Below are positions 14,874 through 64,000 of a stretch of DNA of 64,000 bases, in pieces; the stretch's first letter is position 1, and the number at the start of each line of letters is the position of its first letter. Below the pieces are notes generated by a model. It did no database searches. It was given only the letters and a program-made list of their open reading frames with translations, and was not told the origin of the DNA. The translations under genes and the position numbers were made by a program. Source of the DNA: an uncultured bacterium (GTDB lineage Bacteria; Bacillota_I; Bacilli_A; RFN20; CAG-826); contig CASGDR010000001.1 of NCBI GenBank assembly GCA_949300345.1, forward strand, positions 328,695-392,694, given 5' to 3'.

Positions 14874-14935
14874 GTGGAAAGGTATCCCCGCTTTGGGCAA
14901 ATAGTCCGAAATTGATCCGAAGATTTACATAGCCC

Positions 14936-15811: not shown

Positions 15812-15919
15812 AGGCTAACTATACACCAAGAGCAATGACGGAATTACAGAAAGCAAAATGGGCAAAATCTCTATGATAACGAACAAAAACCCTGCAAAAG
15901 CCGTATAATCAAGTAAGAA

Positions 15920-16222: not shown

Positions 16223-16693
16223 TATTTGAGTTTTGCAGTTACGCGAATTCACTTAACAGTCTGATTGAATAGATCCGATTCCAATCCCAGACGGATATAA
16301 AAAAGTCTGGCCCACCCCGATAGAGCAAGATGGACTTTTTTCTTCGTGAATGCCTGACACAACAAAAGTGAATCGTATCACGCAAATGTTTTTTCTTTGC
16401 AAGTTGTGAATTGCTACCCGATCTTTGAAATGAAATGTTTCTAGGTCATACCCCTAGCGAACGAACAACACCAACGATGGAATAGCTCTGCCTGGAGAAA
16501 AACCAAATCAAACTTTTTAAGAGAAATGGCATTGCTCACTAATTTAGTAGACTGTTTGCCATTCGTACCATTCGTCAAACTGGACCCATTCAGTGAATTC
16601 AAAGTAGTCAATTACATTTTTCTAAAGCCTCTTTTTTTCGTTGCATCATGTTTCTAGGTTGTGTTTTTCGCTCCATTGTTTGAAAATTAAGCT

Positions 16694-18022: not shown

Positions 18023-18086
18023 ACCCAAATTCACCGGTTTTTGGCGAATTCATTCGGTAATAAGAGAAGATTTCAAAATAAGGGGT

Positions 18087-18407
18087 TCAATCCAACAGTT
18101 CTTTTTCCTCAGGGTGCTTTTCAAACCAAACCGAGGAATAGGAGCAGACCGGACGGATTTTGTAGTTCTCTTGCTTGGCAACCTTGACCGCTTCATCCAT
18201 AAGCACAGCAGCTAAGCCCTTGCCTCTTTGGGACTCGTCCACAAAGGTATGTTCCAAGAACATGACTCCTTGATCCAAGGACCAAGAGATGAATCCGACT
18301 TCTGTCCCGTTTTCAATCAGACGGATCGAGTTTCCTTTTCTTACCTTTTCCATATCGGAAATGTAGCTTATGAAAAAAGAAAACTCCAATGTATTGCTCC
18401 AAGCCAT
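18087..18407 (-). CDS. GNAT-family N-acetyltransferase (small, YjdJ-like)
   Basis: 106 aa; motif A region QRGKGLAAVLMDEAV. Confidence 0.55.
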   Translation of the reverse strand: MAWSNTLEFSFFISYISDMEKVRKGNSIRLIENGTEVGFISWSLDQGVMFLEHTFVDESQRGKGLAAVLMDEAVKVAKQENYKIRPVCSYSSVWFEKHPEEKELLD

Positions 18408-18620
18408 TAATTGATTTCATTTATTCGACAACCAACAGTGTTTATAAAACCGGATCAATTACACCAATATAACATGCTTAAGGAGTAGATAGCCCGGTGA
18501 TGATCTTAAGCATAAAAATACCATCCAAACAAAGCGGCAGAGAAAATCTGCCAATACAAAGAAGGCAACCAAAATGAGGAATTTTGCCTAAAAGTAATGC
18601 CTGAATAATCTAACAAGAAA

Positions 18621-18668
18621 TAAAACCCCGAGACGATCGGGGCTTTTTGCATTTTGTGGTGACCCAGT
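18621..18668. repeat. degenerate copy of the tRNA-Glu 3' end plus its terminator (direct repeat of 20288..20335)
   Basis: aaaaccccgagacgatcggggctttttgcattttgtggtgacccag against aaaaccccgacacaatcggggcttttttcgatttggtgacccag: about 80% identity over about 45 nt. Similarity ends exactly inside the tRNA acceptor/T-arm sequence. Confidence 0.45.
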
Positions 18669-19766
18669 CGTGAGCAGTTAGAATACGAAACAATGGCAAT
18701 TCCAATGAGCAAAAAAGGGGTTAAACAACGCTTTTGGTATTGTTTTTGAGATTCTCGCATACTGGAAAGTCAATTTTTCGTACTCAAAGCCGCATTCCGG
18801 GAAAGGACATTGGCACAAGAAGACAAAGTTCATGCCGAATCATTAAATTAATTCCTTCTTTCCCTCTTGGACATAGCTGGATGAACCGCAGTGATGGGAA
18901 ATCAGGGACGAATATGGGCTGGTGCCCGGCTTGTTATAGTCTTTTTGGTTAACCTTTTTCTTAAAGAAAAAGGAATAACCTAGACTCTTTTGTAATGGTA
19001 TCCGTATTTTCTTATGGCCCATAAGGGCCGTAGATAAGATGGAACCTATAATTTCTGCGCCGGCTGGCGCAGCGATCTAAGGCATAGCAACCTCTGGCGA
19101 TTGCCCGCAACCCTTGGCAAAAGTATAAACAATTCAACCCGGCTGCAGTGTCTCCGGGCCGTGGCTTGAGGGAAACCCCACCGGGTCTATCTATGATAGT
19201 CTCCGCAACCAGGGCCGCAGGATGCGTAATAGGACTTGGGGGGACGCCCCTTGCCCCGGTACTTGGGTTCCGTTTTTTATTCGTCATCAAGCCATCTCAG
19301 CGCCCTGTCGATGGCTTTTTTGTTTACCAAGTGATTTGCTGAATAATCTATTTGGCTCAAATCTACATTCTCATGCGGATTTCCGTGCAGCCCGCTCGCC
19401 CTTGGCAAATCGCAATCCTTGTCCTTCTTTGGGGTTTGGGTTTTTAGACAATTTTACGTAATTTTTTCCCAGTCTCTTTTTTGCTTTGCAGACCATCTGT
19501 AATAATCCTTTGGTCTATGGGTAATGACATAACCAGTGGCATCCTTTCTTTTATTGCGCATCATAATCGCTGGATCTCTTGCTTTTTTATGGAATCTAAT
19601 CTTTTTCTTCATATCTTGACCTTACTTTAAATAAATGCGACTATTTGTTTACCGACCGGTGTCGAACCGCCCGAAAGGGGGGATCCGGCGGTGTTTTTTG
19701 TTACTCCCGATAGAAGTGTGGACAGGTGGAAAGCGGCCGTTCCGCACAAGAATAGACAGACCCTTT

Positions 19767-20099
19767 TTATTCCCTTAGATAAAACATCGTCCCTAACGGG
19801 CCGGTCCTGGCTAGTAGCCTATCGGTTCCATAGCGAAGGCACTCCCATGCCTCCCCTCCCTCGAAATCGATGGCCACGAAACCCGAGTCTTCTCTATAGC
19901 TGAAAGACTTGCGCGGCTCCCCGCTGATGCCGAGGGAACCGTCCGTATTCGAAAAGGAAAGGGTTTCCGAAGAGGAAACCCATGTCGTGCCCGCTACGGA
20001 TTCGACCGACCTATTGAAAACGTTGGCCTTTGCCATCAGAAGAAAGGCAGCCGCAACTGCCGAGGAAATTACGATGGCCACCTTGGCGGCAAGGTTCAT
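19767..20099 (-). CDS. hypothetical small secreted protein (doubtful)
   Basis: 110-aa ORF with a signal-peptide-like N-terminus MNLAAKVAIVISSAVAAAFLLMAKA. It sits inside the repeat-bounded, hairpin-rich region. Could be spurious. Confidence 0.25.
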   Translation of the reverse strand: MNLAAKVAIVISSAVAAAFLLMAKANVFNRSVESVAGTTWVSSSETLSFSNTDGSLGISGEPRKSFSYREDSGFVAIDFEGGEAWECLRYGTDRLLARTGPLGTMFYLRE

Positions 20100-20322: not shown

Positions 20323-20398
20323 TTGGTGACCCAGCCGGGAATCGAACCCGGGATTCAACCTTGAGAGGGTTGCGTCTTAGCCGCTTGACCACAGGGCC
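20323..20398 (-). tRNA. tRNA-Glu (anticodon CTC)
   Basis: Reverse complement gives GGCCCTGTGGTCAAGCGGCTAAGACGCAACCCTCTCAAGGTTG ... CCGGGTTCGATTCCCGGCTGGGTC-A-CCA. Anticodon loop CTCTCAA; one acceptor mismatch. Confidence 0.7.
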
Positions 20399-51801: not shown

Positions 51802-52338
51802 ATGAAGAAGGGACCAGCATTCCGGATCGAAGGAAACAAAGCCGTGCATTTGGTCTACGGCAAGGATTCTTCGGTTGAAGGAATCGAAACGGTGCCTTCT
51901 TTTTCTATCTGTGATGGCAACTCTCTAGCGATTGCCACCACTACCGATCCGGTGATCATGCTGGTTACCCCCGATAAGCTCTCAATCGGCAGATACACCG
52001 ATGAAGAACTGCTGAACAAGAAAGCCTATGAGGATTTCAAAAGCTTAGTAAAAGATCCCGAGCAGTGCGAGGTCCACATCTATGCCGGGACCGTATTTGC
52101 TTCCCGCCCCATCAAGGAGGGAGAACTCGATGCCTTGAGGTCGATTGGGTTGCTCGAGGCCAGCAAGATTTCCCAAGGGAAGACCTACCTTGACCTACCG
52201 GTATTGAGCCTACTTCAGATGCGCCTGCTTGGCATCGATATGAAAAACATCTATCTGGACCGGATAGACCCCAGAAATGAAAACTCCCTCTTCGTCGAGG
52301 GAGGGACCAACATAGTCCAGATTCTCAGGAAGGCCTAA
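51802..52338 (+). CDS. hypothetical protein
   Basis: The track ORF starts on TTG at 51775; the first ATG at 51802 is preceded by TTATAAT 6 nt upstream (leaderless-type). 178 aa with no motif. Its stop overlaps the convergent coaD stop. Confidence 0.35.
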   Translation: MKKGPAFRIEGNKAVHLVYGKDSSVEGIETVPSFSICDGNSLAIATTTDPVIMLVTPDKLSIGRYTDEELLNKKAYEDFKSLVKDPEQCEVHIYAGTVFASRPIKEGELDALRSIGLLEASKISQGKTYLDLPVLSLLQMRLLGIDMKNIYLDRIDPRNENSLFVEGGTNIVQILRKA

Positions 52339-52811
52339 AGGCCTTTTTTCTTTAGGTAAGGTAGGACCGCCTTAGGGACCAGCGCCGAGACATCGACTCC
52401 GGAATGGGCCATGGATACCACCGAGGAGGAAGAGATGAAGCTTTCCTCTTTCCTAGCCATGAAGAAGACCATGTCAATGGAAGGGTCGATGAATTCGTTG
52501 GCGGCCGCGAGGGAGAATTCGTATTCGAAGTCGGTCACGGCCCTAAGCCCGCGGACGATGTGGTTGGCCCCGTGCTTCACGCAGTATTCAACGGTCAGCC
52601 CATCGGTATAATCCACTTCCACCCCAGCCATTCCGGCGGTGGATTCCTTCATCATCTCCAGCCTTTCCTGAACGGAGAAGTTGGAAGTCTTCTCGGGATT
52701 GACCGCGAGCAGCAAGATGACCTCATCGAAGGCCTTGAGGGCCCGCTTGAGGATTTCCAGGTGCCCGTTGGTAAGGGGGTCGAAGGACCCGGGGTAGACG
52801 GCTTTCTTCAT
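52335..52811 (-). CDS. coaD: phosphopantetheine adenylyltransferase
   Basis: YPGSFDPLTNGHLEI (H/TxGH motif) and ISSSxV; 158 aa. Confidence 0.85.
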   Translation of the reverse strand: MKKAVYPGSFDPLTNGHLEILKRALKAFDEVILLLAVNPEKTSNFSVQERLEMMKESTAGMAGVEVDYTDGLTVEYCVKHGANHIVRGLRAVTDFEYEFSLAAANEFIDPSIDMVFFMARKEESFISSSSVVSMAHSGVDVSALVPKAVLPYLKKKGL

Positions 52812-53341
52812 ATGACTAGCACAAGTATATAGGTTCTTCCGTAGCGGTAGGTCTTCGAAAATGAGAAATCTCCTTCCACCTTAGGCGGTTCCTCTTCGTA
52901 TTCGAGCATCAGCTTGCTTCCCGGATGGACCAGCCCGTTTTGAAGTATGAGGGATACCGCTTTGGCATAGAATCCTTTTTCCTTATAGGGAGGGTCGATA
53001 TAGACCAAGTCGAAAACCTTCCCCTTTTTCGATAGTTCGATGATGGCCTTTTCATAATCGAGGTTAAGGAGTTCCACATCGAAGCCCCCCGCGTTCCTTT
53101 TGATGACGGCAAAGGCCCCTTTGTCCTTTTCGTTAATGGCCACGTAAGAGGCACCCCTGCTATAGGCTTCCAGGGCGATGGCTCCGGAGCCGGCGAACAA
53201 GTCGAGGACCTTCGCCTCCATGATGGAGGGCCCATAGATATCGAAAACGGCTTCCCGTACCCGGTTTTTGGTGGGCACGGTCACCCCATCGGGCACTTCG
53301 AGCTTCTTGCCCCGGTATTTGCCGCCGAAGATATTGATCAT
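52808..53341 (-). CDS. rsmD: 16S rRNA (guanine966-N2)-methyltransferase
   Basis: VLDLFAGSGAIALEAYSRGA SAM-binding motif and DPPY motif. Conserved ylbH-coaD synteny. Confidence 0.8.
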   Translation of the reverse strand: MINIFGGKYRGKKLEVPDGVTVPTKNRVREAVFDIYGPSIMEAKVLDLFAGSGAIALEAYSRGASYVAINEKDKGAFAVIKRNAGGFDVELLNLDYEKAIIELSKKGKVFDLVYIDPPYKEKGFYAKAVSLILQNGLVHPGSKLMLEYEEEPPKVEGDFSFSKTYRYGRTYILVLVI

Positions 53342-53664
53342 CGGCTATAAAGCCCTCCGAAGACCAAGTCGGATATCTCCCGGCTTAAGTCATTCCACTG
53401 ATTCAAGGCCTTGAGGTATTCGGCCGCGCTAGGCTGGGTATAAAGTTTCTCTTTTATAGAAGATAGTTCCTTTAGCAAGGCCGCGGTTGTCTTTTGCTCA
53501 AGCCCGGGTTCATTGAGCCTATCCTGGATTTGCTTGAACTGCTTGGACAAATCAAGGCAATCCGGATCACGTTCCATTTTCTTCTCCAGTTCCAAAAGCC
53601 TCAGATAGCGGGCGTCTTGCTTCATGGCCTTGGCTAGGCTAATGCATTCCTCGATGAGCGGCAT
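53338..53664 (-). CDS. YlbF/YmcA-like (DUF964) regulatory protein
   Basis: 108-aa helical protein positioned as in the Bacillus ylbF-ylbH-coaD region; weak sequence-pattern match. Confidence 0.4.
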   Translation of the reverse strand: MPLIEECISLAKAMKQDARYLRLLELEKKMERDPDCLDLSKQFKQIQDRLNEPGLEQKTTAALLKELSSIKEKLYTQPSAAEYLKALNQWNDLSREISDLVFGGLYSR

Positions 53665-53712
53665 GGCATCATATTCTAAGATAAAGGCAGGACAAGGTGT
53701 TAGAATCCTAGC

Positions 53713-54258
53713 ATGCTCAAGATCGTCAAGGACAACGTACCCTCGCTTAGGGCCAAATCCAAGGAAGTGGACCTGCCATTGGATGAAAAGACCCTAGCCA
53801 CCATCAAGGAAATGATGGAATACCTCAAGCTCACGCAAGACGATGAATTCCGCAGTTCCCACCCCTCGATTAGGGAAGGCATCGGCCTAGCCGCCCCCCA
53901 GATCGGCAAGAACCTGAGGATGTTGGTCATCTATTATCCCAAAGGGGAAGGACAGTTCGTCGAACACGCCTTGGTGAATCCCAAGATCGTTTCCAGATCG
54001 CTCAAGAAATGCTACCTCGAATCCGGGGAAGGCTGCCTATCGGTGGAAGAATCACACGAAGGCTATGCATACCGGGCCTACCGCATCCAGGTCAAAGCCT
54101 ATGACGCCCTAAAAGGCGAAGACGTCATCATCAAGGCCCAGGGATTCGACGCGATCGTCCTCCAGCATGAGATCGACCATCTCGACGGCATCCTCTTCTA
54201 TGACCGCATCGACAAGAAGAATCCTTTCAAAAAGGAAGTGGGCGCCGTTTCCATCTAG
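53713..54258 (+). CDS. def: peptide deformylase
   Basis: GLAAPQIG, EGCLS and QHEIDHLDG motifs. Confidence 0.85.
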   Translation: MLKIVKDNVPSLRAKSKEVDLPLDEKTLATIKEMMEYLKLTQDDEFRSSHPSIREGIGLAAPQIGKNLRMLVIYYPKGEGQFVEHALVNPKIVSRSLKKCYLESGEGCLSVEESHEGYAYRAYRIQVKAYDALKGEDVIIKAQGFDAIVLQHEIDHLDGILFYDRIDKKNPFKKEVGAVSI

Positions 54259-54356
54259 GTAAGCGCTTTTACATGCCCTCGTGGTCTTTTTTTGCTACTA
54301 TATCTGTGCAAATCTATTTCCATAGATAAAGCTCAGGAAAGGAAAAAGGCTTCCTT

Positions 54357-56024
54357 ATGAATTCACCAGTAAACATCTTCGCCTTGGGCGGACTCGGGGA
54401 AGTAGGCAAGAACACCTACGCCTTCGAGACCGACAAATCGCTGATTTTGGTCGATGCCGGCGTCCGTTTCCCCGAAGCCAACCTCCCTGGCGTCGATTAC
54501 GTAATACCTGATTACACCTATCTGAAGAACAACCGGGCCAAGTTCAAGGCCCTATTCATCACCCACGGCCACGAAGACCATATCGGGGGCATCCCCTTTT
54601 TGGCCCGTTCGGTCTCCATCCCCGTCATCTATGCCCCGAAACTAGCCTGTGCCCTCATCAAGCACAAGCTCGAGGACGCGAGGATCAAAGAACCCATCAA
54701 AATCGTGGAAATCGATTCGGATTCCGTTATCAAGATCGCCGATGATTTCACCGTCTCCTTCTTCAGGGTCACCCACTCGATCCCCGATGCCTATGGGGTA
54801 TGCATCGACACCAAGCAGGGACGCATCATCGAAACCGGCGACTTCAAGATCGACCTCACTCCGGTCGGTCCCCAGTTTGAAATCGGCAAACTCTCCGCCC
54901 TTGGCCAACAGGGCGTCGATCTGCTGATGTCGGATTCCACCAACGCGGAACTCGAAGGCTACACCCCTTCGGAAACCGCGGTCCGGCGCGGGGTTGAGGA
55001 AATCTTCGAAAAGGCCCATAGCCGCGTCATCGTTTCCACCTTCTCCAGCAACATCAACCGCATCCAGCAGGTGGTCGAAGTGGCCATCGAACACGGAAGG
55101 AAGGTCTGTATCCTCGGGCGCAGCATGGTCAATGTCGTCTCCATCGCCAGGCAATACGGCTACATCAAGATCCCCGATGCCTCCTTGATCGATGACGAGG
55201 ACGTCAAGAACCACAAGCCCTCGGAAATCTGCATCCTCTGCACCGGTAGCCAAGGCGAGTCCATGGCCGCCCTATCGCGCATCGCTAGGGGCGAACACAA
55301 GGTCAAAATCATGCCGGGGGACACCATCATCTTCTCTTCCAACCCCATTCCCGGAAACGGGGCCTTGGTCGATCGCCTCGTCAACGATCTGGTAAAGCAG
55401 GGTGCCGACGTCAAACAAAACTCCTTGGCCTTCTCGCTTCACTCCTCGGGCCACCCCTCGAGGCAGGAGCTAAGGCTGATGCTAAGGCTGGTCAACCCCA
55501 AGTACTTCATGCCCTGCCATGGCGAATACCGGATGCTGCGCCTACATGGCGAGCTGGCGGAAGCCCTTGGCATCCCCCACGAAAACATCTTCGTAAACGA
55601 CAATGGGGACGTTTTGACTCTGGATAACCATGTGATTACTCGTTCGGGCCATATCCCCGCAGAACACGTATATATTGACGGAAATGACCTCGACGGGCTC
55701 TCATCCGCGGTCATCCGCGATAGGGAAATTCTCAAAAACGACGGCATGGTGGCCGTGCTGATGACCATCGATACCAAGAAGTCCTCGGTCATCGTCCCGC
55801 CCATCGTCTACGCCCGCGGTTTCTCGGCCTCCATCGATACCCATGTGGTCCGCCACGCCCAGATGACCGCTGAGGAAGCCTTGAAGAACGTGATGCCCAA
55901 CCACCCCTCCTTCAACGAAATCAAGAACGTCATCAAGACGGCGGTGGGCAAATACATCTACCGCAAAACTGCCCGTTCCCCGATGATCATCCCGGTCATC
56001 ATGAACATCGAAGGACAATGCTGA
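54357..56024 (+). CDS. rnj: ribonuclease J
   Basis: Beta-lactamase motif HGHEDHIGG, beta-CASP and a C-terminal domain; 555 aa. The N-terminus NIFALGGLGEVGKNTY is typical of RNase J. Confidence 0.9.
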   Translation: MNSPVNIFALGGLGEVGKNTYAFETDKSLILVDAGVRFPEANLPGVDYVIPDYTYLKNNRAKFKALFITHGHEDHIGGIPFLARSVSIPVIYAPKLACALIKHKLEDARIKEPIKIVEIDSDSVIKIADDFTVSFFRVTHSIPDAYGVCIDTKQGRIIETGDFKIDLTPVGPQFEIGKLSALGQQGVDLLMSDSTNAELEGYTPSETAVRRGVEEIFEKAHSRVIVSTFSSNINRIQQVVEVAIEHGRKVCILGRSMVNVVSIARQYGYIKIPDASLIDDEDVKNHKPSEICILCTGSQGESMAALSRIARGEHKVKIMPGDTIIFSSNPIPGNGALVDRLVNDLVKQGADVKQNSLAFSLHSSGHPSRQELRLMLRLVNPKYFMPCHGEYRMLRLHGELAEALGIPHENIFVNDNGDVLTLDNHVITRSGHIPAEHVYIDGNDLDGLSSAVIRDREILKNDGMVAVLMTIDTKKSSVIVPPIVYARGFSASIDTHVVRHAQMTAEEALKNVMPNHPSFNEIKNVIKTAVGKYIYRKTARSPMIIPVIMNIEGQC

Positions 56025-56563
56025 TTTTGGCTTCCGCATCCCCTAGGAGAAAGGAATTGCTATCCAAACTGGTTCCTTCTTTCAAGGTCGAAGCCGCCAA
56101 CATCGACGAGAAGGTCCTCGACGGGCTGCCCGCCCACGAGCTTCCTTTAGAAGAAAGCAGGCTAAAAGCCTATGACGTCTATTCGAGGCACCCGGAAGAC
56201 GAAATCCTCTCGGCCGATACGGTCGTGATACTCGAGGGCGAAATCCTGGGCAAGCCCAAGGACGAGGAAGAGGCCTTTAGGATGCTGATGAAGCAGTCCG
56301 GCAAAACCCAGACGGTCCTAACCGGCTATACCTATATAGGCAAGGGCAAGGAAATTTCCCGCTCCATCGCCAGCAAGGTCACCTTTAGGAAGCTAAGCGA
56401 GGAAGAGGCCTGGGATTATATAAGAAAAGCCCGGCCGCTAGATAAGGCCGGGGCTTATGGGATCCAAGACGAAGGAACCCCGGTCGAGAGCCTAGAAGGC
56501 AGTTTCGACAACGTGATGGGACTTCCTACGGAAGACCTCAGGAAACACGTATTCAGGAATTGA
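56018..56563 (+). CDS. maf: Maf-family nucleoside-triphosphate pyrophosphatase
   Basis: LILASASPRRKELL N-terminus, Maf fold, about 181 aa. Overlaps the rnj stop. Confidence 0.8.
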   Translation: MLILASASPRRKELLSKLVPSFKVEAANIDEKVLDGLPAHELPLEESRLKAYDVYSRHPEDEILSADTVVILEGEILGKPKDEEEAFRMLMKQSGKTQTVLTGYTYIGKGKEISRSIASKVTFRKLSEEEAWDYIRKARPLDKAGAYGIQDEGTPVESLEGSFDNVMGLPTEDLRKHVFRN

Positions 56564-56969
56564 AGATGCGGCCCTCCCATTCCAGGGCCGCTTTTTCGAT
56601 GACCACGGTGAGTTTGTTGCCAGAGAGAATATAGGGAGGGAAACCGGCCTGGTCGAGGCCTTCCTTTTGAATTTTGGATACATCATCGAGGACGATGATG
56701 AGCCTAGAGCCCTTGGCTTCATGGCTAAGGACGTTGTCGCTGCCCCCTAGGGCCCTAAGGATGTCGGATTCGCTCACCCCGACCTTGATGGGTTCCCTTT
56801 TCTTCTGTTTGGGGACCTTGACCTTTTTGGCTTTCTTGACGGTTGCGTCTTTCCTTCTTCTTAGATATACGAATAGCCCTAGGGCCAAGACGGCCAGGAT
56901 TATGGCCCCCGCCACCGAAAGAGGAATGATCAGATCGCCGGTGTTTACGCCTTCAAGTATCTTTGCCAT
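56553..56969 (-). CDS. membrane-anchored protein with a PTS-EIIB(Glc)-like domain that lacks the phosphorylatable Cys
   Basis: N-terminal TM helix, Lys-rich linker, then LRALGGSDNVLSHEAKGSRLIIVLDD. This resembles the EIIB motif (GG..N ... CATRLR), but with AKGSRL in place of CxTRLR. Confidence 0.4.
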   Translation of the reverse strand: MAKILEGVNTGDLIIPLSVAGAIILAVLALGLFVYLRRRKDATVKKAKKVKVPKQKKREPIKVGVSESDILRALGGSDNVLSHEAKGSRLIIVLDDVSKIQKEGLDQAGFPPYILSGNKLTVVIEKAALEWEGRIFNS

Positions 56970-57023
56970 GGTGGAAATACTCCGTTTCGTTTAGGTTATA
57001 ATACAAGAGTTGAGGACGAAAAT

Positions 57024-57596
57024 ATGTCAAATGCCATCGAAATCGAAGCCAAAGCCCTGATCGACAAGGACAGCTACCATAAGGTCATGGGCCTTTTCAA
57101 GGGCGCGGTCCCCTATTCCCAGACCAACTATTACATCGATAACGAAGAATCGGAACTGAAGAAGGAAGGCATTGCCCTACGCATCAGGCGCAGGGACGGG
57201 AAGCTGCAGATGACCCTGAAGACTCCCCTTAGCCAAGGCCTTCTGGAGAAGAACGAGGATCTGGCTGAATGGGAGTTCGTGGATTTCGAGACCAAGGGCG
57301 ATTTCCCCGAAAATGACCTCAAGCGCTTCCTTACCATGCTAGACATCGATGCCGAAAGCCTGCGCATCATCACCAGCCTGACCACCAAGCGCGTGGACAT
57401 TAAATACAAAGGCGGGCTCCTATCCATCGACGAGAATTACTATTCGGGGCGCTATGACTACGAAATCGAGCTCGAATACAACAACATGAAGGATGCCGAA
57501 AGGCTCCTCAAGGAACTTCTTGACGATAACAAGATCCCCTACACCCTCACCAACAAAACGAAAACGGCCCGGGCCCTGGAAGCCGTCGGCCGTTAG
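57024..57596 (+). CDS. CYTH-domain protein (CyaB-type triphosphate tunnel metalloenzyme)
   Basis: The N-terminal EIEAK motif and alternating Glu/Lys/Arg beta-strands (IALRIRRRDGKLQMTLK ... EIELEY) are characteristic of CYTH. Confidence 0.7.
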   Translation: MSNAIEIEAKALIDKDSYHKVMGLFKGAVPYSQTNYYIDNEESELKKEGIALRIRRRDGKLQMTLKTPLSQGLLEKNEDLAEWEFVDFETKGDFPENDLKRFLTMLDIDAESLRIITSLTTKRVDIKYKGGLLSIDENYYSGRYDYEIELEYNNMKDAERLLKELLDDNKIPYTLTNKTKTARALEAVGR

Positions 57597-58063
57597 TCAT
57601 TCGGTTTTTCTTCTTTGTTGATTTTGATTTTTCCTTCCTGGTCGAGGCTTTTCAGGCATCTTCCATAGGAGGGGCAGTTTTCCGGCGAGCACACCGACTC
57701 GGCCAATAAACGGGCCCGGGGAATGAAGGTTGATATCTCTTCTTCGTTGTACCCCGTCTGGATGCGGTGGTCATCCATGATGATGGGGCGCTTTAGCACC
57801 GAGGGATTGGCCTTGATGAAGCCGATCAGTTCGGAAATGGTCATCGAATCGAAATCGATGTCATTGTCGAGGACGATCTTGCTGCGGTTGGAGATGATGT
57901 CGTCGGTCCCGTTTTCGCTTTTGGCGATGATTTCGAGGATGTCCTTCTCGGAAAGCTTTTTGGAAAAGATGTCCTTGGATTCATAAGGAATATTCTGGTC
58001 ATCGAACCACTTTTTGACCTTCCGGCAGGAAGCACACGAATTGGAGACGTAGATTTTGATCAT
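57593..58063 (-). CDS. spx: Spx/ArsC-family global redox regulator with a Cys-rich C-terminal extension
   Basis: YVSNSCASCRKVKKW (CxxC), GTDDIISNRSK, LKRPIIMDDHRIQTGYNEEEISTFIPR: close to Bacillus Spx. An extra roughly 25-aa tail contains CSPENCPSYGRC. Confidence 0.75.
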   Translation of the reverse strand: MIKIYVSNSCASCRKVKKWFDDQNIPYESKDIFSKKLSEKDILEIIAKSENGTDDIISNRSKIVLDNDIDFDSMTISELIGFIKANPSVLKRPIIMDDHRIQTGYNEEEISTFIPRARLLAESVCSPENCPSYGRCLKSLDQEGKIKINKEEKPND

Positions 58064-58296
58064 GGTTTGCTTGGGGCTTTATCTTCTTCCATCGAAAGGG
58101 ATATTTCAACAAAGTCCAAAGGCTTTTAAAGCGGCGGATTCTCGTTTTCGGCATAGTCATCCCTTTTTTGCGGGGATATCGCAAAATAGGCTTGTTTATG
58201 AAGCTTCCCCTTTAGGGAAATACTTATCCAACGTTTTACAATAGACACACCAATTCGAATCGTCTATTTGGCAAATCCGTGGTTTACTTAGGGGCT

Positions 58297-60444
58297 ATGA
58301 GAAAAAACGCAATCGTTCTCGGCGCCCTGATCGCCGTCCCCACCCTAGTACTGGGTTCCATCTTGCTTGGGAACTTTTTACCGACAATAGGTCTGACCGC
58401 ACCGACCAAGAGCTGCGCCGGTATCGTGTTTGGCACGGAAGCCTCCGGCAGCCTCTCTGAAACTAATTTCTCAACCGATACCTTTGATGGAGTAAACAGC
58501 TATTGCACATCCGTATCGGTAGCAAACCTTGAAGGTGAGAGTGCATATTGGAATACCGGATATGCAATGAGGCTAGGTTCATCTAAGAAAACCGGTTCGA
58601 TTACCATTACTTTTTCCCAGAACTACTTAATCAAGGAAGTCAGGGTCTTAGCCTCTCTTTATGGTTCTGATACCGGCAGCAAAATCAAGGTTACCAGCAG
58701 CGCCAATACGACCGGGTCCTCCCAAACCATTACCAATTCGGAAACGCCGAACTACAACTACAATCCCAGCGAACCAAACGGGCAATCCTCAACCGGAAAT
58801 TACCTCTATGAGGACATGGATAACGGAAGCGGCACTTATTCCAATTGGCTCAAACTGGAAACAACCGGAAAAAGCAAGAAAAGGGTCTATATCTATAAAT
58901 TGGTTATAACCCTTAACGCTTCTGACTCCTCCACTTCTTCCAGCTGGTCGTCCCAGTCTTCAAGTTCGTCCAGTTCATCCAGTTCCTCATCCACTACCCC
59001 AAGCGGAACCGGATATTCGAAACAGGAAATCAAATATAGCCTCTCTACCAATCCCGAATGGGGAATATTCGGCTCCTCCGGAATGTCATTCGCCCCGGTC
59101 AATAACCCCGATATGCTAGTCCTTCCGGTCATTTTCTCCAGTACCGGCAAGTCTTACAGCGAGGCTGGCCTGCAAATGATAGAAGATGCCTATACGTCTG
59201 CCACATTGCAGGAGGATGCGTTCTATTCGGTCAAGGAATTTTATCGGACTTCCAGCTATGGGGCTTTGGACATCGATGTCCACATTGCCGAACCGTTTAC
59301 CACTAACTATACCCCTTCGACCTTTGAATCCCAGTGGAAATCTTCTCCGCTAAATGAATCAACATCCGAAGATGACCCGATCATCAACATCATCGATGAA
59401 TATCTGGACACCATAGATACAAACACTTTGGAATCCTACGACTCTAACAATGACGGTTATATCGACTCGGTCCACGTCATTTATCTGACAAAGGACAATC
59501 CTGACACCGACATCTGGTGGCACTACACCTATGCCGATTACTATGGCGCCGCTAAATATAGAAGCGTCAAACCCGGTCTATATTTCTTCTCGAACTTTGA
59601 GTCGGGGATGAACAATGGTATCTATGGTACTTACCCTGACACCCATACCGTAATCCATGAAACCGGCCACATCCTCGGATTGGATGATTACTATAGCTAC
59701 GATAGCGGCGACAGTGCTTGCCCGGCCGGATGCGTCGACATGATGGATTTCAACATCGGTGACCACGGAGCCTATTCCAAAATGTTATTGGGTTGGACCG
59801 ATCCCTATGTCGTCGATGGCACGAGCAACAGCTTCGAAATTACCCTAAAGCCTTTCGAATCTTCCGGCGATTGCATCGTAATTGCCAATCCCACCGAAGA
59901 CCCCTTCAACTCTACCGCTTGGGACGAATATATCGTTCTTAGCTACTACACCCCGACCGGAATCAACTCCATCGACGCGGATGGATATGCCGAATGGGGA
60001 AATGCCGGTTATGGCTACAACAAAGGAGGCACCTATGCTACCTCCGGGCTACAAGCCTTCCATGTAGACTCAAGGGCGGCCTATTACCAGAACAATAGAT
60101 ACTACTATTACGAAACGGAGAGCGATTTTGCCAACTACGGCTCATCATTTGAAATGATCTTTGCCTCAAACACTCCTTCGTATAGCTATGAAATAACATC
60201 TACTGGCGATTATAAGAGCAGCAACAACCGCCTCCTGAAGGCCATCAATGCCGATGGAGTCTCGCGCTTCGACAATGGCGGCACCAGAACCTTCGGCAAT
60301 CCCAACGTCCTATTCGGAATAGGCGATTCCTATTCTTCTTCCGACGGACCCACCAAGTTCAATGACGGCACCAAGATCAACTACGACTTCACCGTCACCG
60401 CCATGGACGCTAACGGAATCACCATTCGGTTCACTGCCAATTAA
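58297..60444 (+). CDS. secreted M6-like (immune-inhibitor-A-type) zinc metallopeptidase, paralogue 1, with an N-terminal accessory domain
   Basis: Signal peptide, a roughly 200-aa N-terminal domain, the Ser-rich linker SSTSSSWSSQSSSSSSSSSSSS, then a protease domain with VIHETGHILGLDDYYSYD (HExxHxxGxxD) and CPAGC. The track start at 58279 is GTG; the ATG is 58297. Confidence 0.6.
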   Translation: MRKNAIVLGALIAVPTLVLGSILLGNFLPTIGLTAPTKSCAGIVFGTEASGSLSETNFSTDTFDGVNSYCTSVSVANLEGESAYWNTGYAMRLGSSKKTGSITITFSQNYLIKEVRVLASLYGSDTGSKIKVTSSANTTGSSQTITNSETPNYNYNPSEPNGQSSTGNYLYEDMDNGSGTYSNWLKLETTGKSKKRVYIYKLVITLNASDSSTSSSWSSQSSSSSSSSSSSSTTPSGTGYSKQEIKYSLSTNPEWGIFGSSGMSFAPVNNPDMLVLPVIFSSTGKSYSEAGLQMIEDAYTSATLQEDAFYSVKEFYRTSSYGALDIDVHIAEPFTTNYTPSTFESQWKSSPLNESTSEDDPIINIIDEYLDTIDTNTLESYDSNNDGYIDSVHVIYLTKDNPDTDIWWHYTYADYYGAAKYRSVKPGLYFFSNFESGMNNGIYGTYPDTHTVIHETGHILGLDDYYSYDSGDSACPAGCVDMMDFNIGDHGAYSKMLLGWTDPYVVDGTSNSFEITLKPFESSGDCIVIANPTEDPFNSTAWDEYIVLSYYTPTGINSIDADGYAEWGNAGYGYNKGGTYATSGLQAFHVDSRAAYYQNNRYYYYETESDFANYGSSFEMIFASNTPSYSYEITSTGDYKSSNNRLLKAINADGVSRFDNGGTRTFGNPNVLFGIGDSYSSSDGPTKFNDGTKINYDFTVTAMDANGITIRFTAN
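58921..58996 (+). repeat. Ser-codon (TCN/AGY) microsatellite-like tract encoding the linker of paralogue 1
   Basis: tcctccacttcttccagctggtcgtcccagtcttcaagttcgtccagttcatccagttcctcatcc. Confidence 0.6.
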
Positions 60445-60512
60445 ACCGAAATTTTACCTTCGGACAACAATCTTTGCTAGCAATCTTTTCCCTTTTGGAT
60501 AAACTATGGCGC

Positions 60513-62129
60513 ATGAAAAAATCAGTTTTGTTTGTCTTAGGGGGCATCGGGCTGGTTGCTCTAACCTCCTGCACTATCTTCGCTTTCCCCGGTTCTTCTA
60601 CCGGTGAATCGACCATTTCCTCAGACTCCTCGAGCCATGGCTCAGACAGCTCGTCCGATTCTTCATCTAGCTCCTCGTCTTCCAGTTCTTCATCTAGTTC
60701 TTCGTCTAGCTCATCATCTACTTCTTCTTCGAGTACCACTCCGAGTGAAAAGGGTTACTACAAGGCGGAAGGTACCGACTTCACCCTGGCGACCCATCGT
60801 GAAATGGGGGTCTTCGGTTCGGGTTCGACCTGCCCTTCGGTGGGCTCTCCGGCCGTCATGGTCATTCCCCTATACTTCACCAACACGGGGGATTTCTCAG
60901 AGGAAGAGCTCGCCAACATCGAACTGGCCTATAAGGGCGAAAACCTCGAAGACAATGCCTTCTATTCCTTGGAAAAGTACTATCGCCTCTCCTCCGGCGG
61001 GGCTTTGGACATGAACTGCCAGATCCTAGATCCGGTCCGCATCAATATGACCGATTCTGCCTGGGCCCGCCAAAGCTCGCCCATCGACGACCTGATACAG
61101 GACTGCATCTCCAATCTTGATAACCCCGAGGACTTTGACTATGACGGGGACAAGAGAATCGATGCCATCCACATCATCTACAAGACCACCCAAACCCTGG
61201 ATTGGGGAGGCTTCTGGTGGCATTACACGACCTACACCAACGTCAGGGGTAGCAACGGCTACCAAGGCGGTACCTACTTCTTCTCCAACTACGAAGACGG
61301 GATGATGAACCGAGCCTATGGGAACTACCCCGATAGCCACACCATCATCCATGAAACCGGTCATGCCCTAGGCCTAAATGACTACTACTCCTATGACAAC
61401 AATGACAATGATTGCCCGGCCGGATGCGTCGACATGATGGATTATAACTATGGCGACCACTGTGCCTATTCCAAGATGCTCCTAGGCTGGAACACCACGC
61501 CCTATGTCATCGATGGCACCAGCGACGATTTCCAGATTACCCTCAAGCCTTACTCCACCTCCGGCGAGTTCATCTTGTTAAAAGGCGAGGGTGATGACTG
61601 GAATGGTACCCCGTGGGACGAATACATCACCCTTAGCTACTACACCGTCGAAGGCGGGGTCAATGACCGTGATGCCGAGGGCTATTCCCAACGTGGGCAC
61701 GCCTATCGGGTCGACGGCCTTCAGGCTTTCCACGTAGACTCAAGGGTCTACAGCGTATATTCGGTCACTTCTAGCTATTTGGTATCCACCGGTAGCTATG
61801 CCACCGAGATCGAAGAATCCATGATGGGCTATTACTGGGGCACCGCCGCCAGCAACACCCCCTCCCAATCCATCGAATTCGAATCCCAGACCGAAGTCTC
61901 GGATGCCAGCTACTATTCCGACAACCGCCTCTTGAGTGCCATCTCCGCTGACGGAAGGACCAACTTCGCCTATAACCCCGGGCGCGACTCCATCCTCTTC
62001 GGAATCGGCGATACATATTCTTCCTCTACCGGCCCTTCTAGTTTCAACGAAGGATATGACCTCGGCTATGACTTCGAGGTCACTTCCATGAACGAAGAGG
62101 GCATCACCATCCATTTCACGGCGATTTGA
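60513..62129 (+). CDS. M6-like zinc metallopeptidase lipoprotein, paralogue 2
   Basis: Lipoprotein signal MKKSVLFVLGGIGLVALTSC, a 45-residue poly-Ser linker, IIHETGHALGLNDYYSYD, CPAGC. The track start at 60474 is TTG. Confidence 0.65.
   Translation: MKKSVLFVLGGIGLVALTSCTIFAFPGSSTGESTISSDSSSHGSDSSSDSSSSSSSSSSSSSSSSSSSSTSSSSTTPSEKGYYKAEGTDFTLATHREMGVFGSGSTCPSVGSPAVMVIPLYFTNTGDFSEEELANIELAYKGENLEDNAFYSLEKYYRLSSGGALDMNCQILDPVRINMTDSAWARQSSPIDDLIQDCISNLDNPEDFDYDGDKRIDAIHIIYKTTQTLDWGGFWWHYTTYTNVRGSNGYQGGTYFFSNYEDGMMNRAYGNYPDSHTIIHETGHALGLNDYYSYDNNDNDCPAGCVDMMDYNYGDHCAYSKMLLGWNTTPYVIDGTSDDFQITLKPYSTSGEFILLKGEGDDWNGTPWDEYITLSYYTVEGGVNDRDAEGYSQRGHAYRVDGLQAFHVDSRVYSVYSVTSSYLVSTGSYATEIEESMMGYYWGTAASNTPSQSIEFESQTEVSDASYYSDNRLLSAISADGRTNFAYNPGRDSILFGIGDTYSSSTGPSSFNEGYDLGYDFEVTSMNEEGITIHFTAI
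60620..60745 (+). repeat. long Ser-codon repeat tract (poly-Ser linker of paralogue 2)
   Basis: About 125 nt of tcn/agc repeats (tcttcatctagctcctcgtcttccagttcttcatctagttcttcgtctagctcatcatct ...). Confidence 0.6.
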
Positions 62130-62185
62130 TGGGGAAATTACCCATGGGACTAGCCAATTTACCTTGATAAAGGTAAGTTATCGCT

Positions 62186-63733
62186 ATGTTCAAACACCGT
62201 TTCTTATTCCTCCTAGGCCTGGTCATGGTATCGGGCCCTTCTTCATGCGGGAATCTATATTCATCCTCTAGCTCAGCCTCATCCAGGGGACCGACCCCGG
62301 GATATTACAAGGAAGAACTCAAATACTCCTTGGCCGATAACCCCAAATGGGGCATCTTCGGGGCCATCAACGACATGGGACATGTGCCGGTGGGTACTCC
62401 CGACGTGCTCATCCTTCCGGTGGTCTTTAGTGACATCGACAAGGAATTCGACCAAACCAAGATGGATTCCATCCATGAGGCCTATACCGGCGAAAAACTC
62501 GAAGACAATGCCTTCTATTCGCTCAAGGAATTCTATTCGGTTTCCAGCTATGGCAAGCTCGACATCGACGTCCACTTCGCCGATCCTTTCCGCACCAGCA
62601 TGACCACCTCGGAATTCGAGACCCTGTTCAAGCTCTCCCCGCCGGCGGGAGTGACCCTGGAAACTGATCCCATCATCACCATCATCGACGAATACCTCGA
62701 CACCATAAGCGAGGCCGAGCTTGCCGAACTCGACAATGACAATAACGGCTACATCGATTCGGTCCACCTCATCTATCTGACCAAGGACAATGCCGACACC
62801 AACATCTGGTGGCACTTCACCTACGGGGACTTCTATAAGGCAAGCAAACAAAGAAGCAAAAGGCCCGGCATCTATTTCTTTTCCAACTACGAAACCGGGA
62901 TGCATAACGGACGCTATGAGGGCTATCCCGATTCCCATACCATCATCCATGAATACGGACATACCCTAGGCCTAGCCGACTACTATTCCTATGACGACAC
63001 CATGGCCATGTATGCCGGAGCGGTCGACATGATGGACCTCAACATCGGCGACCACACTGCCTATTCGAAGATGATGGGCTGGATCGATCCCTATGTAGTC
63101 GACGGCACCAAGGAAAACTTTGAGATCACCATCAAGCCCTTCGAGGAATCTGGGGACTGCATCGTGATGGGAAATCCAAGCAAAGACCCCTTCAACGACA
63201 CGGTTTTCGACGAATACATAATCCTCAGCTACTATACTCCGACCGGCATCAACGGAAGGGATGCGGGCGGCTATGCCGAATGGACGGGACACGGCTTCAA
63301 CAAGCTCGGCGGTACCTATCAGAATAGCGGCCTGCAGGCCTTCCACGTCGATTCGAGGACCGTCTATTACAATTTCACTGGCTACGAATTCTTCGAAACC
63401 TACCAGGACATCCTCGACCACGGCGACTACTATGCGGGGATGGCCGCTTCCAATACCCCTTCAAGGAGCTTCAGGCTCGAAGACGGGCAACCCGTCATCG
63501 GGGAAGGCGAATTGCTCTACACCGCCATCTGCGCGGATGGGGTGCAGCGTTTTGGACCCGGCATGGGCTCCGTCGACAAATTCAACGATCCCGACATCCT
63601 CTTCGAAGTGGGCGACAAATATTCGGAATCTACCGGACCCAAGAACCTCAATGACGGCAACCCCGTGTCCTATGATTTCGAGGTCGTTTCCATGGATGAG
63701 GAGGGAATCACCCTCTCCTTCAGTGCCGTCTAA
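62186..63733 (+). CDS. M6-like zinc metallopeptidase lipoprotein, paralogue 3 (Cys pair lost)
   Basis: MFKHRFLFLLGLVMVSGPSSC signal, a short Ser linker, IIHEYGHTLGLADYYSYD. The CPAGC of paralogues 1 and 2 is replaced by AMYAG. Confidence 0.6.
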   Translation: MFKHRFLFLLGLVMVSGPSSCGNLYSSSSSASSRGPTPGYYKEELKYSLADNPKWGIFGAINDMGHVPVGTPDVLILPVVFSDIDKEFDQTKMDSIHEAYTGEKLEDNAFYSLKEFYSVSSYGKLDIDVHFADPFRTSMTTSEFETLFKLSPPAGVTLETDPIITIIDEYLDTISEAELAELDNDNNGYIDSVHLIYLTKDNADTNIWWHFTYGDFYKASKQRSKRPGIYFFSNYETGMHNGRYEGYPDSHTIIHEYGHTLGLADYYSYDDTMAMYAGAVDMMDLNIGDHTAYSKMMGWIDPYVVDGTKENFEITIKPFEESGDCIVMGNPSKDPFNDTVFDEYIILSYYTPTGINGRDAGGYAEWTGHGFNKLGGTYQNSGLQAFHVDSRTVYYNFTGYEFFETYQDILDHGDYYAGMAASNTPSRSFRLEDGQPVIGEGELLYTAICADGVQRFGPGMGSVDKFNDPDILFEVGDKYSESTGPKNLNDGNPVSYDFEVVSMDEEGITLSFSAV

Positions 63734-63751
63734 GAGAAATATTGCTGGAAT

Positions 63752-63767
63752 ATGGTCTATATAGACC
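63752..63767. promoter_or_regulatory. perfect 16-bp palindrome TGGTCTATATAGACCA 16 nt upstream of paralogue 4; candidate operator
   Basis: Exact inverted repeat centred on TATATA, between the paralogue 3 stop and the paralogue 4 start. Confidence 0.3.
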
Positions 63768-63782
63768 ATTATCATAATCACC

Positions 63783-64000
63783 ATGAAGAAGAAATTTCTT
63801 TTGCCTACGATACTGCTATCGACTCTCGTACTAACCTCCTGCGCCGGCTATCCCTCCGATAGTTCCGCCACGGAATCTTCTTCCTCCTCTTCCTCCTCAT
63901 CCTCATCCTCAAACGAAGAGAAGACCGGTTATAGGAAGCTCGAACTCACCGATACCCTAGCCGATAATACGGAATACGGGGTATTCGAGAAATCTAGCCA
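63783..64000 (+). CDS. M6-like lipoprotein, paralogue 4 (N-terminal part; continues beyond the window)
   Basis: MKKKFLLPTILLSTLVLTSC lipoprotein signal, SSSSSSSSSSSSSNEE linker, then GYRKLELTDTLADNTEYGVFEKS. This parallels the GYYKEELKYSLADNPKWGIFG block that opens the other paralogues. Confidence 0.5.
   Translation, partial: MKKKFLLPTILLSTLVLTSCAGYPSDSSATESSSSSSSSSSSSNEEKTGYRKLELTDTLADNTEYGVFEKSS
63876..63912 (+). repeat. Ser-codon repeat (linker of paralogue 4)
   Basis: tcttcttcctcctcttcctcctcatcctcatcctca. Confidence 0.55.

What the first reader, a model, noticed from the sequence alone, without database searches (positions are those of the whole stretch)
58297..64000. Tandem array of four or more paralogous surface metallopeptidases with Ser-microsatellite linkers and individual upstream palindromes
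Four consecutive same-strand genes share the architecture signal or lipoprotein peptide, poly-Ser linker, then the conserved block GYYK.E.KYSLA.NP.WGIFG and a protease domain with HE(T/Y)GHxLGLxDYYSYD (HExxHxxGxxD, the M6/InhA pattern). Paralogue 1 has an extra N-terminal domain. Paralogue 3 has lost the CPAGC Cys pair. Paralogue 4 diverges right after the linker. The linkers are encoded by TCN/AGY repeat tracts of 37-125 nt, prone to slippage and recombination. Each gene is preceded by a different palindrome: TTGCTAGCAA before paralogue 2, TTACCTT-gata-AAGGTAA before paralogue 3, and the perfect 16-mer TGGTCTATATAGACCA before paralogue 4. This looks like a diversifying family of surface-exposed proteases, possibly host-interaction or antigenic-variation related.
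Basis: seen in the sequence. Interest (0 to 1): 0.65.

Follow-up and report, generated by a model that had tools for sequence, protein, structure and literature searches.

The report
Four tandem surface zinc-protease genes
An uncultured gut bacterium carries four old, diverged copies in a row of a membrane-tethered zinc protease distantly related to the Bacillus "immune inhibitor A" enzymes; it is an ordinary gene-family expansion and shows no sign of being a switching or antigen-varying system.

Summary
The described genes are real. There are exactly four same-strand paralogues: P1 58297-60444, P2 60513-62129, P3 62186-63733, and P4 from 63783, which runs off the window and is 515 aa in a 99%-identical strain. 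Each has an N-terminal signal or lipobox, a Ser-rich spacer, a conserved GY.K.E block, and an intact HExxHxxGxxD zinc site.

The diversification reading is not supported.
- The Ser tracts use scrambled codons, with no codon repeated more than twice.
- Their lengths are identical in every strain examined, and copy number is four in every assembly that spans the array.
- The paralogues are only 43-59% identical.
- pN/pS is about 0.2.

Of the three palindromes, the 10-mer is at chance level. The 18-nt perfect palindrome and the IG3 hairpin are non-random, and their function is unknown.

P1's extra N-terminal domain is an unannotated module. It is also fused to secreted nucleases in other proteins found in public genomes and metagenomes. 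This fits a surface scavenging role.

The parts
58297..60444 (+). P1, 715 aa. It has a hydrophobic N-terminus without a lipobox, an accessory all-beta N-domain (about aa 35-208), a Ser-rich spacer, and an M6-like protease with HETGHILGLDD at nt 59656-59688.
   Evidence: (gene called as 715 aa); family HMM score 581
58399..58920 (+). P1 accessory N-terminal module (motifs CAxIxFGT ... RLGS ... KRxxLxKIVFTL). It has no Pfam or PDB sequence match. The same module heads Endonuclease I, barnase-type RNase and metallo-beta-lactamase-fold proteins, and other ~700-aa M6-like proteases.
58921..59004 (+). P1 Ser-rich spacer (SDSSTSSSWSSQSSSSSSSSSSSSTTPS), encoded by mixed Ser codons
   Evidence: no length change between strains
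60474..60483 (.). 10-nt palindrome TTGCTAGCAA in the P1-P2 spacer; chance-level
   Evidence: second copy at window 524
60513..62129 (+). P2, 538 aa. It has a lipobox (LTSC), a Ser-rich spacer of about 51 aa (nt 60594-60746), and an M6-like protease with HETGHALGLND at nt 61350-61382.
   Evidence: TIGR03296 E 8e-19
62147..62192 (+). P2-P3 intergenic stem-loop. Its core is the inverted repeat AATTTACCTT/AAGGTAAGTT (62156-62179). The right arm holds an SD-like AAGG and a -10-like TAAGTT, and the outer stem covers the P3 ATG.
   Evidence: The RNA fold is -23.3 kcal/mol, z -4.4, matched by 0 of 200 shuffles. Strain differences fall in the loops. TAAGTT lies 6 nt before the ATG.
62186..63733 (+). 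P3, 515 aa. The lipobox is altered in this strain (PSSC; LSSC in other strains). It has a short Ser spacer (nt 62261-62284) and an M6-like protease with HEYGHTLGLAD at nt 62948-62980.
   Evidence: (AF2 pLDDT 89)
63752..63769 (.). Perfect 18-nt palindrome ATGGTCTATATAGACCAT in the P3-P4 spacer, directly upstream of a -10-like TATCAT that sits 7 nt before the P4 ATG
   Evidence: (0.25 expected per 64 kb). It is identical in all strains.
63783..64000 (+). P4, truncated by the end of the window (515 aa in L001). It has a lipobox (LTSC), a Ser spacer (nt 63855-63911), and the block GYRKLELTDTLADNTEYGVFEK.

Best explanation
This is a lineage-specific, old tandem expansion of four genes. They encode cell-surface zinc metalloendopeptidases of a divergent branch of family M6 (immune inhibitor A-like), in an uncultured gut member of the Bacilli (the RFN20/RF39/"Mollicutes"-type MAG neighbourhood).

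Each protein is exported by an N-terminal signal. P2, P4 and, in other strains, P3 would be lipid-anchored at a lipobox Cys. P1 has a hydrophobic signal or anchor followed by an accessory beta-domain. A flexible Ser-rich spacer then holds the enzyme away from the membrane. The catalytic domain binds zinc through the two His and the Asp of HExxHxxGxxD, with the Glu as general base and a downstream invariant Met (DMMD) as the likely Met-turn.

Shown here: paralogy, motif integrity, fold, family distribution and strain stability.

Inferred: export and lipidation, catalysis, and the biological role. I take the role to be extracellular breakdown of host, dietary or microbial proteins for peptide and amino-acid scavenging by a reduced-genome organism, with the four diverged copies giving different substrate ranges. 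The Ser tracts are spacers and not switches. The intergenic hairpins are transcript-level punctuation or control elements of unknown role.
For: - Four paralogues share all family-invariant residues.
- TIGR03296 M6 domain matches at E 4e-18 to 6e-19.
- 10 of 63 family members hit Pfam Peptidase_M6.
- The AF2 model of P3 has pLDDT 89 and pTM 0.89.
- Among 120 homologues, 100 have a lipobox, 118 have HExxHxxGxxD and 40 have a Ser-rich spacer, so the architecture is a family trait.
- Relatives are in gut Bacilli/Mollicutes/Erysipelotrichaceae-labelled MAGs.
- Of the related loci, 65 hold one copy within +-10 kb and 18 hold 2-4 tandem copies, three of those 18 being this species' own contigs.
- P1-P4 form one clade.
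- The P1 N-module is shared with secreted Endonuclease I, RNase and MBL proteins, each with its own poly-Ser spacer. This points to a common surface-display design for degradative enzymes.
- pN/pS is 0.18-0.23, indicating purifying selection.
Against: - No activity, localisation or expression data exist.
- The Pfam M6 model does not match P1-P3, and the TIGR03296 score is below its curated cutoff.
- The profile search of PDB sequences does not find InhA2. It finds only a marginal M7 snapalysin hit around the zinc motif.
- P3 shows signs of relaxed constraint: Leu to Pro at lipobox position -3 in this strain, a 1-aa deletion in KM(M)MGW, and a frameshift in strain L003.
- The nutritional role is an inference from lifestyle and domain sharing. 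No peptide transporter lies next to the array.
- The organism itself could not be named, because the best GTDB-representative hit is only 40% identical.
Confidence: 0.72

Rival explanations
1. One reading: a diversifying, antigenic- or phase-variation locus. Slippage or recombination in the Ser-coding repeats and between paralogues would generate surface variability.
For: - Surface-exposed paralogues in tandem with low-complexity linkers.
- pN/pS is about three times higher than in the flanking housekeeping genes (0.18-0.23 against 0.06-0.07).
- P3 carries strain-specific lesions.
Against: - The Ser tracts use interleaved synonymous codons, with no codon repeated more than twice and perfect tandem stretches of 20 nt or less.
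- No Ser-tract indel and no copy-number change was found among the strain variants examined.
- Trinucleotide changes would stay in frame and alter only spacer length.
- The paralogues are 43-59% identical, and only one ~235-nt stretch of DNA similarity (76%) remains, so there is no substrate or trace of recent gene conversion.
- pN/pS is well below 1.
Confidence: 0.06
2. The enzyme is the same but the role differs: host-interaction or defence factors like Bacillus InhA or Vibrio PrtV. They would cleave host antimicrobial peptides, mucus or extracellular-matrix proteins, or immunoglobulins to allow persistence in the gut, and not primarily feed the cell.
For: - InhA2 is the closest structure.
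- Known M6 enzymes degrade insect antibacterial peptides and host proteins (PMC2613228).
- The low-confidence P1 N-domain model resembles CBM32-type glycan-binding sandwiches found on mucin-degrading enzymes.
Against: - Identity to InhA2 is only 12-17%, and the protein is too short for a MAM domain.
- The N-domain is also fused to nucleases, which suggests a general display or scavenging module and not a host-protein-specific one.
- The CBM32 resemblance rests on a pLDDT-52 model.
- The O-glycoprotease hits score no better than generic adamalysin-type folds.
Confidence: 0.2
3. Some or all copies are non-catalytic remnants (adhesins or decaying duplicates), and the array is on its way to pseudogenisation.
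For: - P3 has an unusual HEYGH where the family has Thr or Ser.
- P3 has Pro at lipobox position -3 in this strain.
- P3 has a 1-aa deletion relative to another strain.
- P3 has a frameshift in L003.
Against: - All 23 family-invariant positions, including H, E, H, G and D of the zinc site, are intact in P1-P3, and the zinc motif is intact in P4.
- The reading frames are open in three of four strain variants.
- pN/pS is about 0.2.
Confidence: 0.04

Closest known systems
Immune inhibitor A peptidases InhA1/InhA2 of the Bacillus cereus group (MEROPS family M6; structure 4YU5/4YU6)
   Same: - Both have the HExxHxxGxxD zinc motif.
- Both are extracellular.
   Different: - Identity is only 12-17%.
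- There is no Pfam PF05547 match, and TIGR03296 scores below its cutoff.
- The mature protein is about 480 residues against about 750, so there is no room for the MAM insert (my knowledge of the InhA2 architecture; not tested here).
- It is tethered by a lipobox plus a poly-Ser spacer and not freely secreted.
- Whether an N-terminal latency pro-peptide exists is unknown.
PrtV of Vibrio cholerae (M6)
   Same: It is an M6-type zinc protease domain of the kind TIGR03296 is described as modelling (per its NCBIfam description), and it is secreted (PMC2613228).
   Different: PrtV is a 102-kDa multi-domain Gram-negative exoprotein that is processed at both ends. It has no lipobox or Ser spacer. It was not compared directly here.
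Snapalysin (family M7, Streptomyces small neutral protease; 1C7K, 4HX3)
   Same: It shares the HExxHxxGxxD motif with Asp as third ligand. It is the only PDB sequence found by the family profile (E 0.012, motif region only). 4 of 63 family members touch Pfam M7 weakly.
Simple-sequence contingency loci (phase-variable surface genes of Mycoplasma, Neisseria, Haemophilus)
   Same: They are surface-protein genes that contain low-complexity tracts.
   Different: Those loci rely on long perfect homopolymer or short-unit repeats whose length varies between and within strains (my knowledge). Here the tracts are codon-scrambled, in frame and invariant between strains.

Membership tests
MEROPS M6 / immune inhibitor A family | Zinc-binding motif HEXXHXXGXXD | tested here: met
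   Present in P1, P2, P3 and P4. H, E, H, G and D are invariant in 63 aligned family members, and 118 of 120 homologues have the motif.
MEROPS M6 / immune inhibitor A family | Match to the Pfam Peptidase_M6 model (PF05547) at its gathering score | tested here: not met
   P1-P3 have no PF05547 hit even at E 0.1. 10 of 63 aligned relatives hit it (best 3.5e-9), which links the family to M6 only transitively.
MEROPS M6 / immune inhibitor A family | Match to NCBIfam TIGR03296 (M6 family metalloprotease domain) at its curated cutoff | tested here: inconclusive
   The E-values are significant (4e-18 to 6e-19) and cover most of the 286-position model. The scores are 66-69 bits against a cutoff of 110.8.
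MEROPS M6 / immune inhibitor A family | Fold of the catalytic domain and adjoining domain as in InhA2 | tested here: met
MEROPS M6 / immune inhibitor A family | Conserved Met downstream of the zinc site (Met-turn) | tested here: inconclusive
   An invariant Met (M282 of P3, in DMMD) lies 17 residues after the Asp ligand.
MEROPS M6 / immune inhibitor A family | InhA-type accessory architecture (N-terminal latency pro-peptide, MAM insert) | not tested
   Protein length (515-538 aa) argues against a MAM domain. The conserved GY.K.E block after the spacer might or might not be a pro-segment.
MEROPS M6 / immune inhibitor A family | Zinc-dependent endopeptidase activity | not testable with these tools
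   This needs biochemistry.
Bacterial lipoproteins (Lgt/Lsp substrates) | Lipobox [LVI][ASTVI][GAS]C after a positively charged n-region and a hydrophobic h-region | tested here: inconclusive
   Met in P2 (LTSC) and P4 (LTSC). P3 reads PSSC in this strain but LSSC in two other strains. P1 (TKSC) does not fit. 100 of 120 homologues have a lipobox-like motif.
Simple-sequence-repeat contingency (phase or antigenic variation) loci | Long perfect tandem repeat tract | tested here: not met
   The longest perfect tandem stretch is 20 nt or less, and no codon is repeated more than twice. TRF finds only imperfect arrays (69-94% matches), none longer than 69 nt.
Simple-sequence-repeat contingency (phase or antigenic variation) loci | Tract-length or copy-number polymorphism between strains | tested here: not met
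   There are no indels in any Ser tract, and the three strains whose contigs span the array (window=L084, L001, L003) all have four genes. The further P3 and P4 variants P0147-P0149 have unchanged tract lengths. Power is limited because the strains are about 99% identical and these are consensus assemblies.
CBM32 / galactose-binding-like domains (for the P1 N-module) | Beta-sandwich jelly-roll fold with sequence or profile match | tested here: inconclusive

The most novel reading that the evidence does not exclude
The ~165-aa N-terminal module of P1 is a new, unannotated surface-display or ligand-binding domain. Uncultured gut Bacilli would fuse it, always through a poly-Ser spacer, to different degradative enzymes: M6-like proteases, Endonuclease I, barnase-type RNases and MBL-fold hydrolases. 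Together these would form a modular extracellular scavenging toolkit.

In addition, P3 and P4 may be individually controlled leaderless genes whose promoters are overlapped by the IG3 inverted repeat and the 18-nt palindrome acting as operators.
Probability: 0.3. Interest if true: 0.5.

Novelty: new member of a known kind. Interest (0 to 1): 0.28.

Why it matters
These proteins belong to a large, essentially unstudied branch of M6-like metalloproteases. The branch is common in uncultured, reduced-genome gut Bacilli and escapes Pfam annotation. Recognising them as tethered InhA-like proteases gives a testable idea of how such organisms obtain peptides or act on host proteins. A display module shared with secreted nucleases strengthens that idea. 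The locus is not evidence for a new variation mechanism.

Tried and rejected
- phmmer of P2 against PDB sequences found nothing. The family profile against PDB gave only marginal snapalysin and EF-hand noise.
- A word-indexed homologue search with the P1 N-domain found nothing. With the N-domain profile it found one protein. Only the exhaustive representative search worked.
- The afdb50 fold library was unavailable.
- The palindrome TGGTCTA-N-TAGACCA was sought as a recurring operator. There is no intergenic second copy in the window, only two mismatched hits inside coding sequence. It was absent from the related-species loci L004-L082. The 18 exact JGI metagenome matches lie on unrelated contigs with no family member nearby, about what chance gives. 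The idea that it is a GntR/HutC-type operator therefore stays an untested recollection.
- Rfam found no RNA family in 57900-64000.
- The consensus scans gave no more promoters or terminators than shuffled sequence.
- An alternative genetic code (AGG=Met or CGG=Trp, known in RFN20; PMC8629427) was considered and rejected. AGG aligns with the near-invariant Arg of HVDSR in P1-P3, and ATG usage is normal.
- Naming the organism failed.
- Two look-ups of other window proteins failed on exact-sequence matching.


Full report
**What is there.** ORF listing and translation show three complete + strand genes and the start of a fourth. They are P1 58297-60444 (715 aa from the ATG that gene callers also use), P2 60513-62129 (538 aa), P3 62186-63733 (515 aa), and P4 from 63783, which runs off the window.

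Near-identical contigs from public assemblies carry the same locus. They show that P4 is a full 515-aa paralogue and that the array ends there; the next gene is a class Ib aminoacyl-tRNA synthetase. L084 is identical to the window over P1-P3. L001/L002 and L003 are about 99% identical to it.

Upstream lie ordinary housekeeping genes: coaD, rsmD, ylbF, def, the RNase J gene, maf, a CYTH protein and a divergently transcribed Spx/ArsC-family gene.

**Shared architecture.**
- Each protein has a hydrophobic N-terminus. P2 and P4 have the lipobox LTSC. P3 has PSSC here but LSSC in two other strains. P1 has no lipobox.
- A Ser-rich tract follows.
- Next comes a block GY.K.E...L(A/S)...G.F.
- A large conserved region carries HExxHxxGxxD: P1 HETGHILGLDD, P2 HETGHALGLND, P3 HEYGHTLGLAD and P4 HECGHSLGLPD.

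P4 keeps the block in diverged form, so it does not diverge right after the linker. P1 has about 200 extra N-terminal residues. The CPAGC Cys pair of P1 and P2 is rare in the wider family (2 of 68 scorable homologues), so its absence from P3 need not be a loss.

**What the proteins are.** Pfam gives no Peptidase_M6 hit, only sub-threshold reprolysin noise. NCBIfam's M6 domain model TIGR03296 matches all three complete proteins at E 4e-18 to 6e-19 over most of the model, but at 66-69 bits against a cutoff of 110.8. PDB sequence searches fail, apart from a marginal hit of the zinc-motif region to M7 snapalysin.

Ten of 63 aligned relatives do hit Pfam Peptidase_M6, and JGI names many of them "M6 family metalloprotease-like protein". 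I therefore file these as a divergent branch of M6. This rests on the motif, the fold and a significant but sub-cutoff profile match. The Pfam membership test fails for these particular proteins.

Known M6 enzymes (InhA, PrtV) are secreted broad-specificity proteases that degrade antibacterial peptides and host proteins (PMC2613228).

**The family.** The search found 402 homologues, nearly all from unnamed MAGs. Of the best 120, 100 have a lipobox-like motif, 118 have HExxHxxGxxD, and 40 have a window of at least 50% Ser after the Cys. The architecture of lipoprotein signal, Ser spacer and protease is therefore a family trait.

Species-representative genomes holding relatives are labelled Bacilli, Mollicutes, Erysipelotrichaceae, Acholeplasmatales, Candidatus Enteromonas, Alloenteromonas, Onthovivens, Caccosoma and Clostridium sp. 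CAG:288. The best is only 40% identical, so the window's own species was not found among the representatives.

Within +-10 kb, 65 loci hold one copy and 18 hold 2-4 tandem copies; three of those 18 are this species' own contigs. Local duplication therefore recurs in this lineage. In a neighbour-joining tree P1-P4 form one clade, but they are only 43-59% identical. Only one ~235-nt DNA stretch is still similar between P1 and P3, at 76% identity. This is an old expansion with no trace of recent gene conversion.

**Testing the diversification idea.** Four lines of evidence count against it.
- *Codon make-up.* The two long tracts (P1, P2) interleave all six Ser codons; P3 and P4 use four each. No codon occurs more than twice in succession, and the longest perfect tandem stretch of period 3-12 is 20 nt or less. 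TRF reports only weak arrays.
- *Indels across the 12 kb shared by the strains.* The only indels are single bases at 62135 (in an intergenic loop) and at 63371 (a frameshift in P3 of L003). None lies in a Ser tract.
- *Further protein variants.* They differ by substitutions (S41L in the P4 tract) or by one residue in KM(M)MGW, and never in spacer length.
- *Copy number and selection.* Copy number is four in every contig that spans the array. pN/pS is 0.18-0.23 for the protease genes against 0.06-0.07 for the flanking housekeeping genes. The proteases are more relaxed but clearly under purifying selection.

One caveat applies: the strains are close and consensus assemblies hide read-level variation.

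**The palindromes.** TTGCTAGCAA is unremarkable. The window holds 69 perfect 10-mer palindromes (51 expected), including a second copy of this very sequence.

The P2-P3 spacer folds into a strong hairpin (-23.3 kcal/mol, z -4.4, matched by 0 of 200 shuffles). All strain differences in that spacer fall in loops. The right arm includes an SD-like AAGG and a -10-like TAAGTT six nt before the ATG.

The P3-P4 spacer holds a perfect 18-nt palindrome (0.25 expected per 64 kb). As RNA it is not unusually stable (z -0.9). It abuts a -10-like TATCAT seven nt before the ATG.

Across 40 genes of the window, TAnn[AT]T hexamers pile up 6-9 nt before the start codon (9 genes). Many genes also lack a Shine-Dalgarno match. 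This hints at frequent leaderless mRNAs. If so, P3 and P4 have their own promoters, and the inverted repeats sit where operators would.

Against a specific-operator reading, the 18-mer has no other meaningful copy in the window, in related loci or in metagenomes. In other species' tandem arrays, 4 of 11 spacers also hold significant but unrelated hairpins, some of them terminator-like. I leave these as inter-gene stem-loops. They could be 3'-end or terminator elements of the upstream gene, or control elements of the downstream one. The question is undecided.

**The extra domain of P1.** The word-indexed search found nothing. The exhaustive search found 25 remote relatives. In these the domain sits at residues ~35-200, after a hydrophobic N-terminus and before a poly-Ser spacer. 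What follows the spacer is Endonuclease I (PF04231), a barnase-type ribonuclease (PF00545) or a metallo-beta-lactamase-fold domain.

A profile of the domain also detects it at the N-terminus of other ~700-aa members of the protease family, including P0031, P0036, P0042, P0044, L023 and L082. It has no Pfam or PDB sequence match.

The domain sharing suggests a common display module for extracellular degradative enzymes. That fits a scavenging lifestyle.

**Mechanism proposed.** Export and lipid or signal anchoring are inferred from the sequence. The Ser spacer acts as a flexible stalk (inferred). Zinc hydrolysis proceeds by the His-Glu-His-Asp site (motif and fold shown, activity inferred). The four diverged copies broaden substrate range (inferred). 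P3 may be decaying in some strains.

**Other checks.** The genetic code is standard. AGG aligns with the near-invariant Arg of HVDSR, which excludes the AGG-to-Met code known in part of RFN20 (PMC8629427).

**Verdict.** This is a real, correctly read locus and an ordinary expansion of a poorly annotated M6-like surface protease family. It is not a variation system. Interest is modest. The shared N-terminal module and the possible leaderless, hairpin-flanked promoters are the only parts that go beyond routine annotation.

Noticed in passing
window 62237-62239 (P3 codon 18): The Leu at lipobox position -3 is Pro in this strain (PSSC), whereas two other strains have LSSC. This could impair lipidation of P3, or it could be a strain-specific or assembly variant. 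L084 shares it.
   Followed up: partly
L003:11180-11190 (equivalent to window 63371): Strain L003 has a one-base deletion plus a substitution in P3, giving a 499-aa product. Another strain's P3 (P0149) has KMMMGW where the window has KMMGW. P3 looks less constrained than its neighbours.
   Followed up: partly
window, upstream of 9 of 40 genes (e.g. 7289, 33206, 39154, 49317, 53338, 53713, 62186, 63783): TAnn[AT]T (-10-like) hexamers are concentrated 6-9 nt before ATG start codons, and many genes lack a Shine-Dalgarno match. This suggests leaderless mRNAs are common in this organism.
   Followed up: partly
P0122-P0143 (proteins from the representative library): Secreted Endonuclease I, barnase-type RNase and MBL-fold proteins share P1's unannotated N-terminal module followed by poly-Ser spacers. 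This is a recurrent design for extracellular hydrolases.
   Followed up: partly
window 58152-58200: An imperfect 21-nt inverted repeat (76% complementary), with a TTTTGCG/CGCAAAA core, lies in the 233-nt divergent promoter region between the Spx/ArsC-family gene and P1.
   Followed up: no
window 14000-20000: GC content drops to 0.41-0.47 against about 0.52 elsewhere. The dip surrounds an AAA_14/DUF4143 ATPase gene (16694-18022) and is flanked by tRNA-His (13646-13722) and tRNA-Glu (20324-20398). It may be a horizontally acquired island.
   Followed up: no
L083 against L001 (sample ERZ16268197): In that assembly the left part of the window (gene 8616-10046) lies on scaffold_17 and the right part (52185-64000) on scaffold_153. 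Either the assembly breaks or the strains differ in arrangement somewhere between about 20 kb and 52 kb.
   Followed up: no
L088, L098, L100, L101 (JGI metagenome contigs): The same 18-nt palindrome sits in a conserved context (ggtATGGTCTATATAGACCATcaggcccg.gtctgacacagtccat) in several unrelated environmental contigs. It is probably a real operator or repeat of another system.
   Followed up: no
L012:9603-9664, L046:11390-11482, L049:8908-9092, L031:2069-2211: Other species' tandem arrays of this protease family also carry significant but unrelated hairpins (arms 8-12 nt) between the paralogues. Some are flanked by A/T runs like bidirectional terminators.
   Followed up: partly
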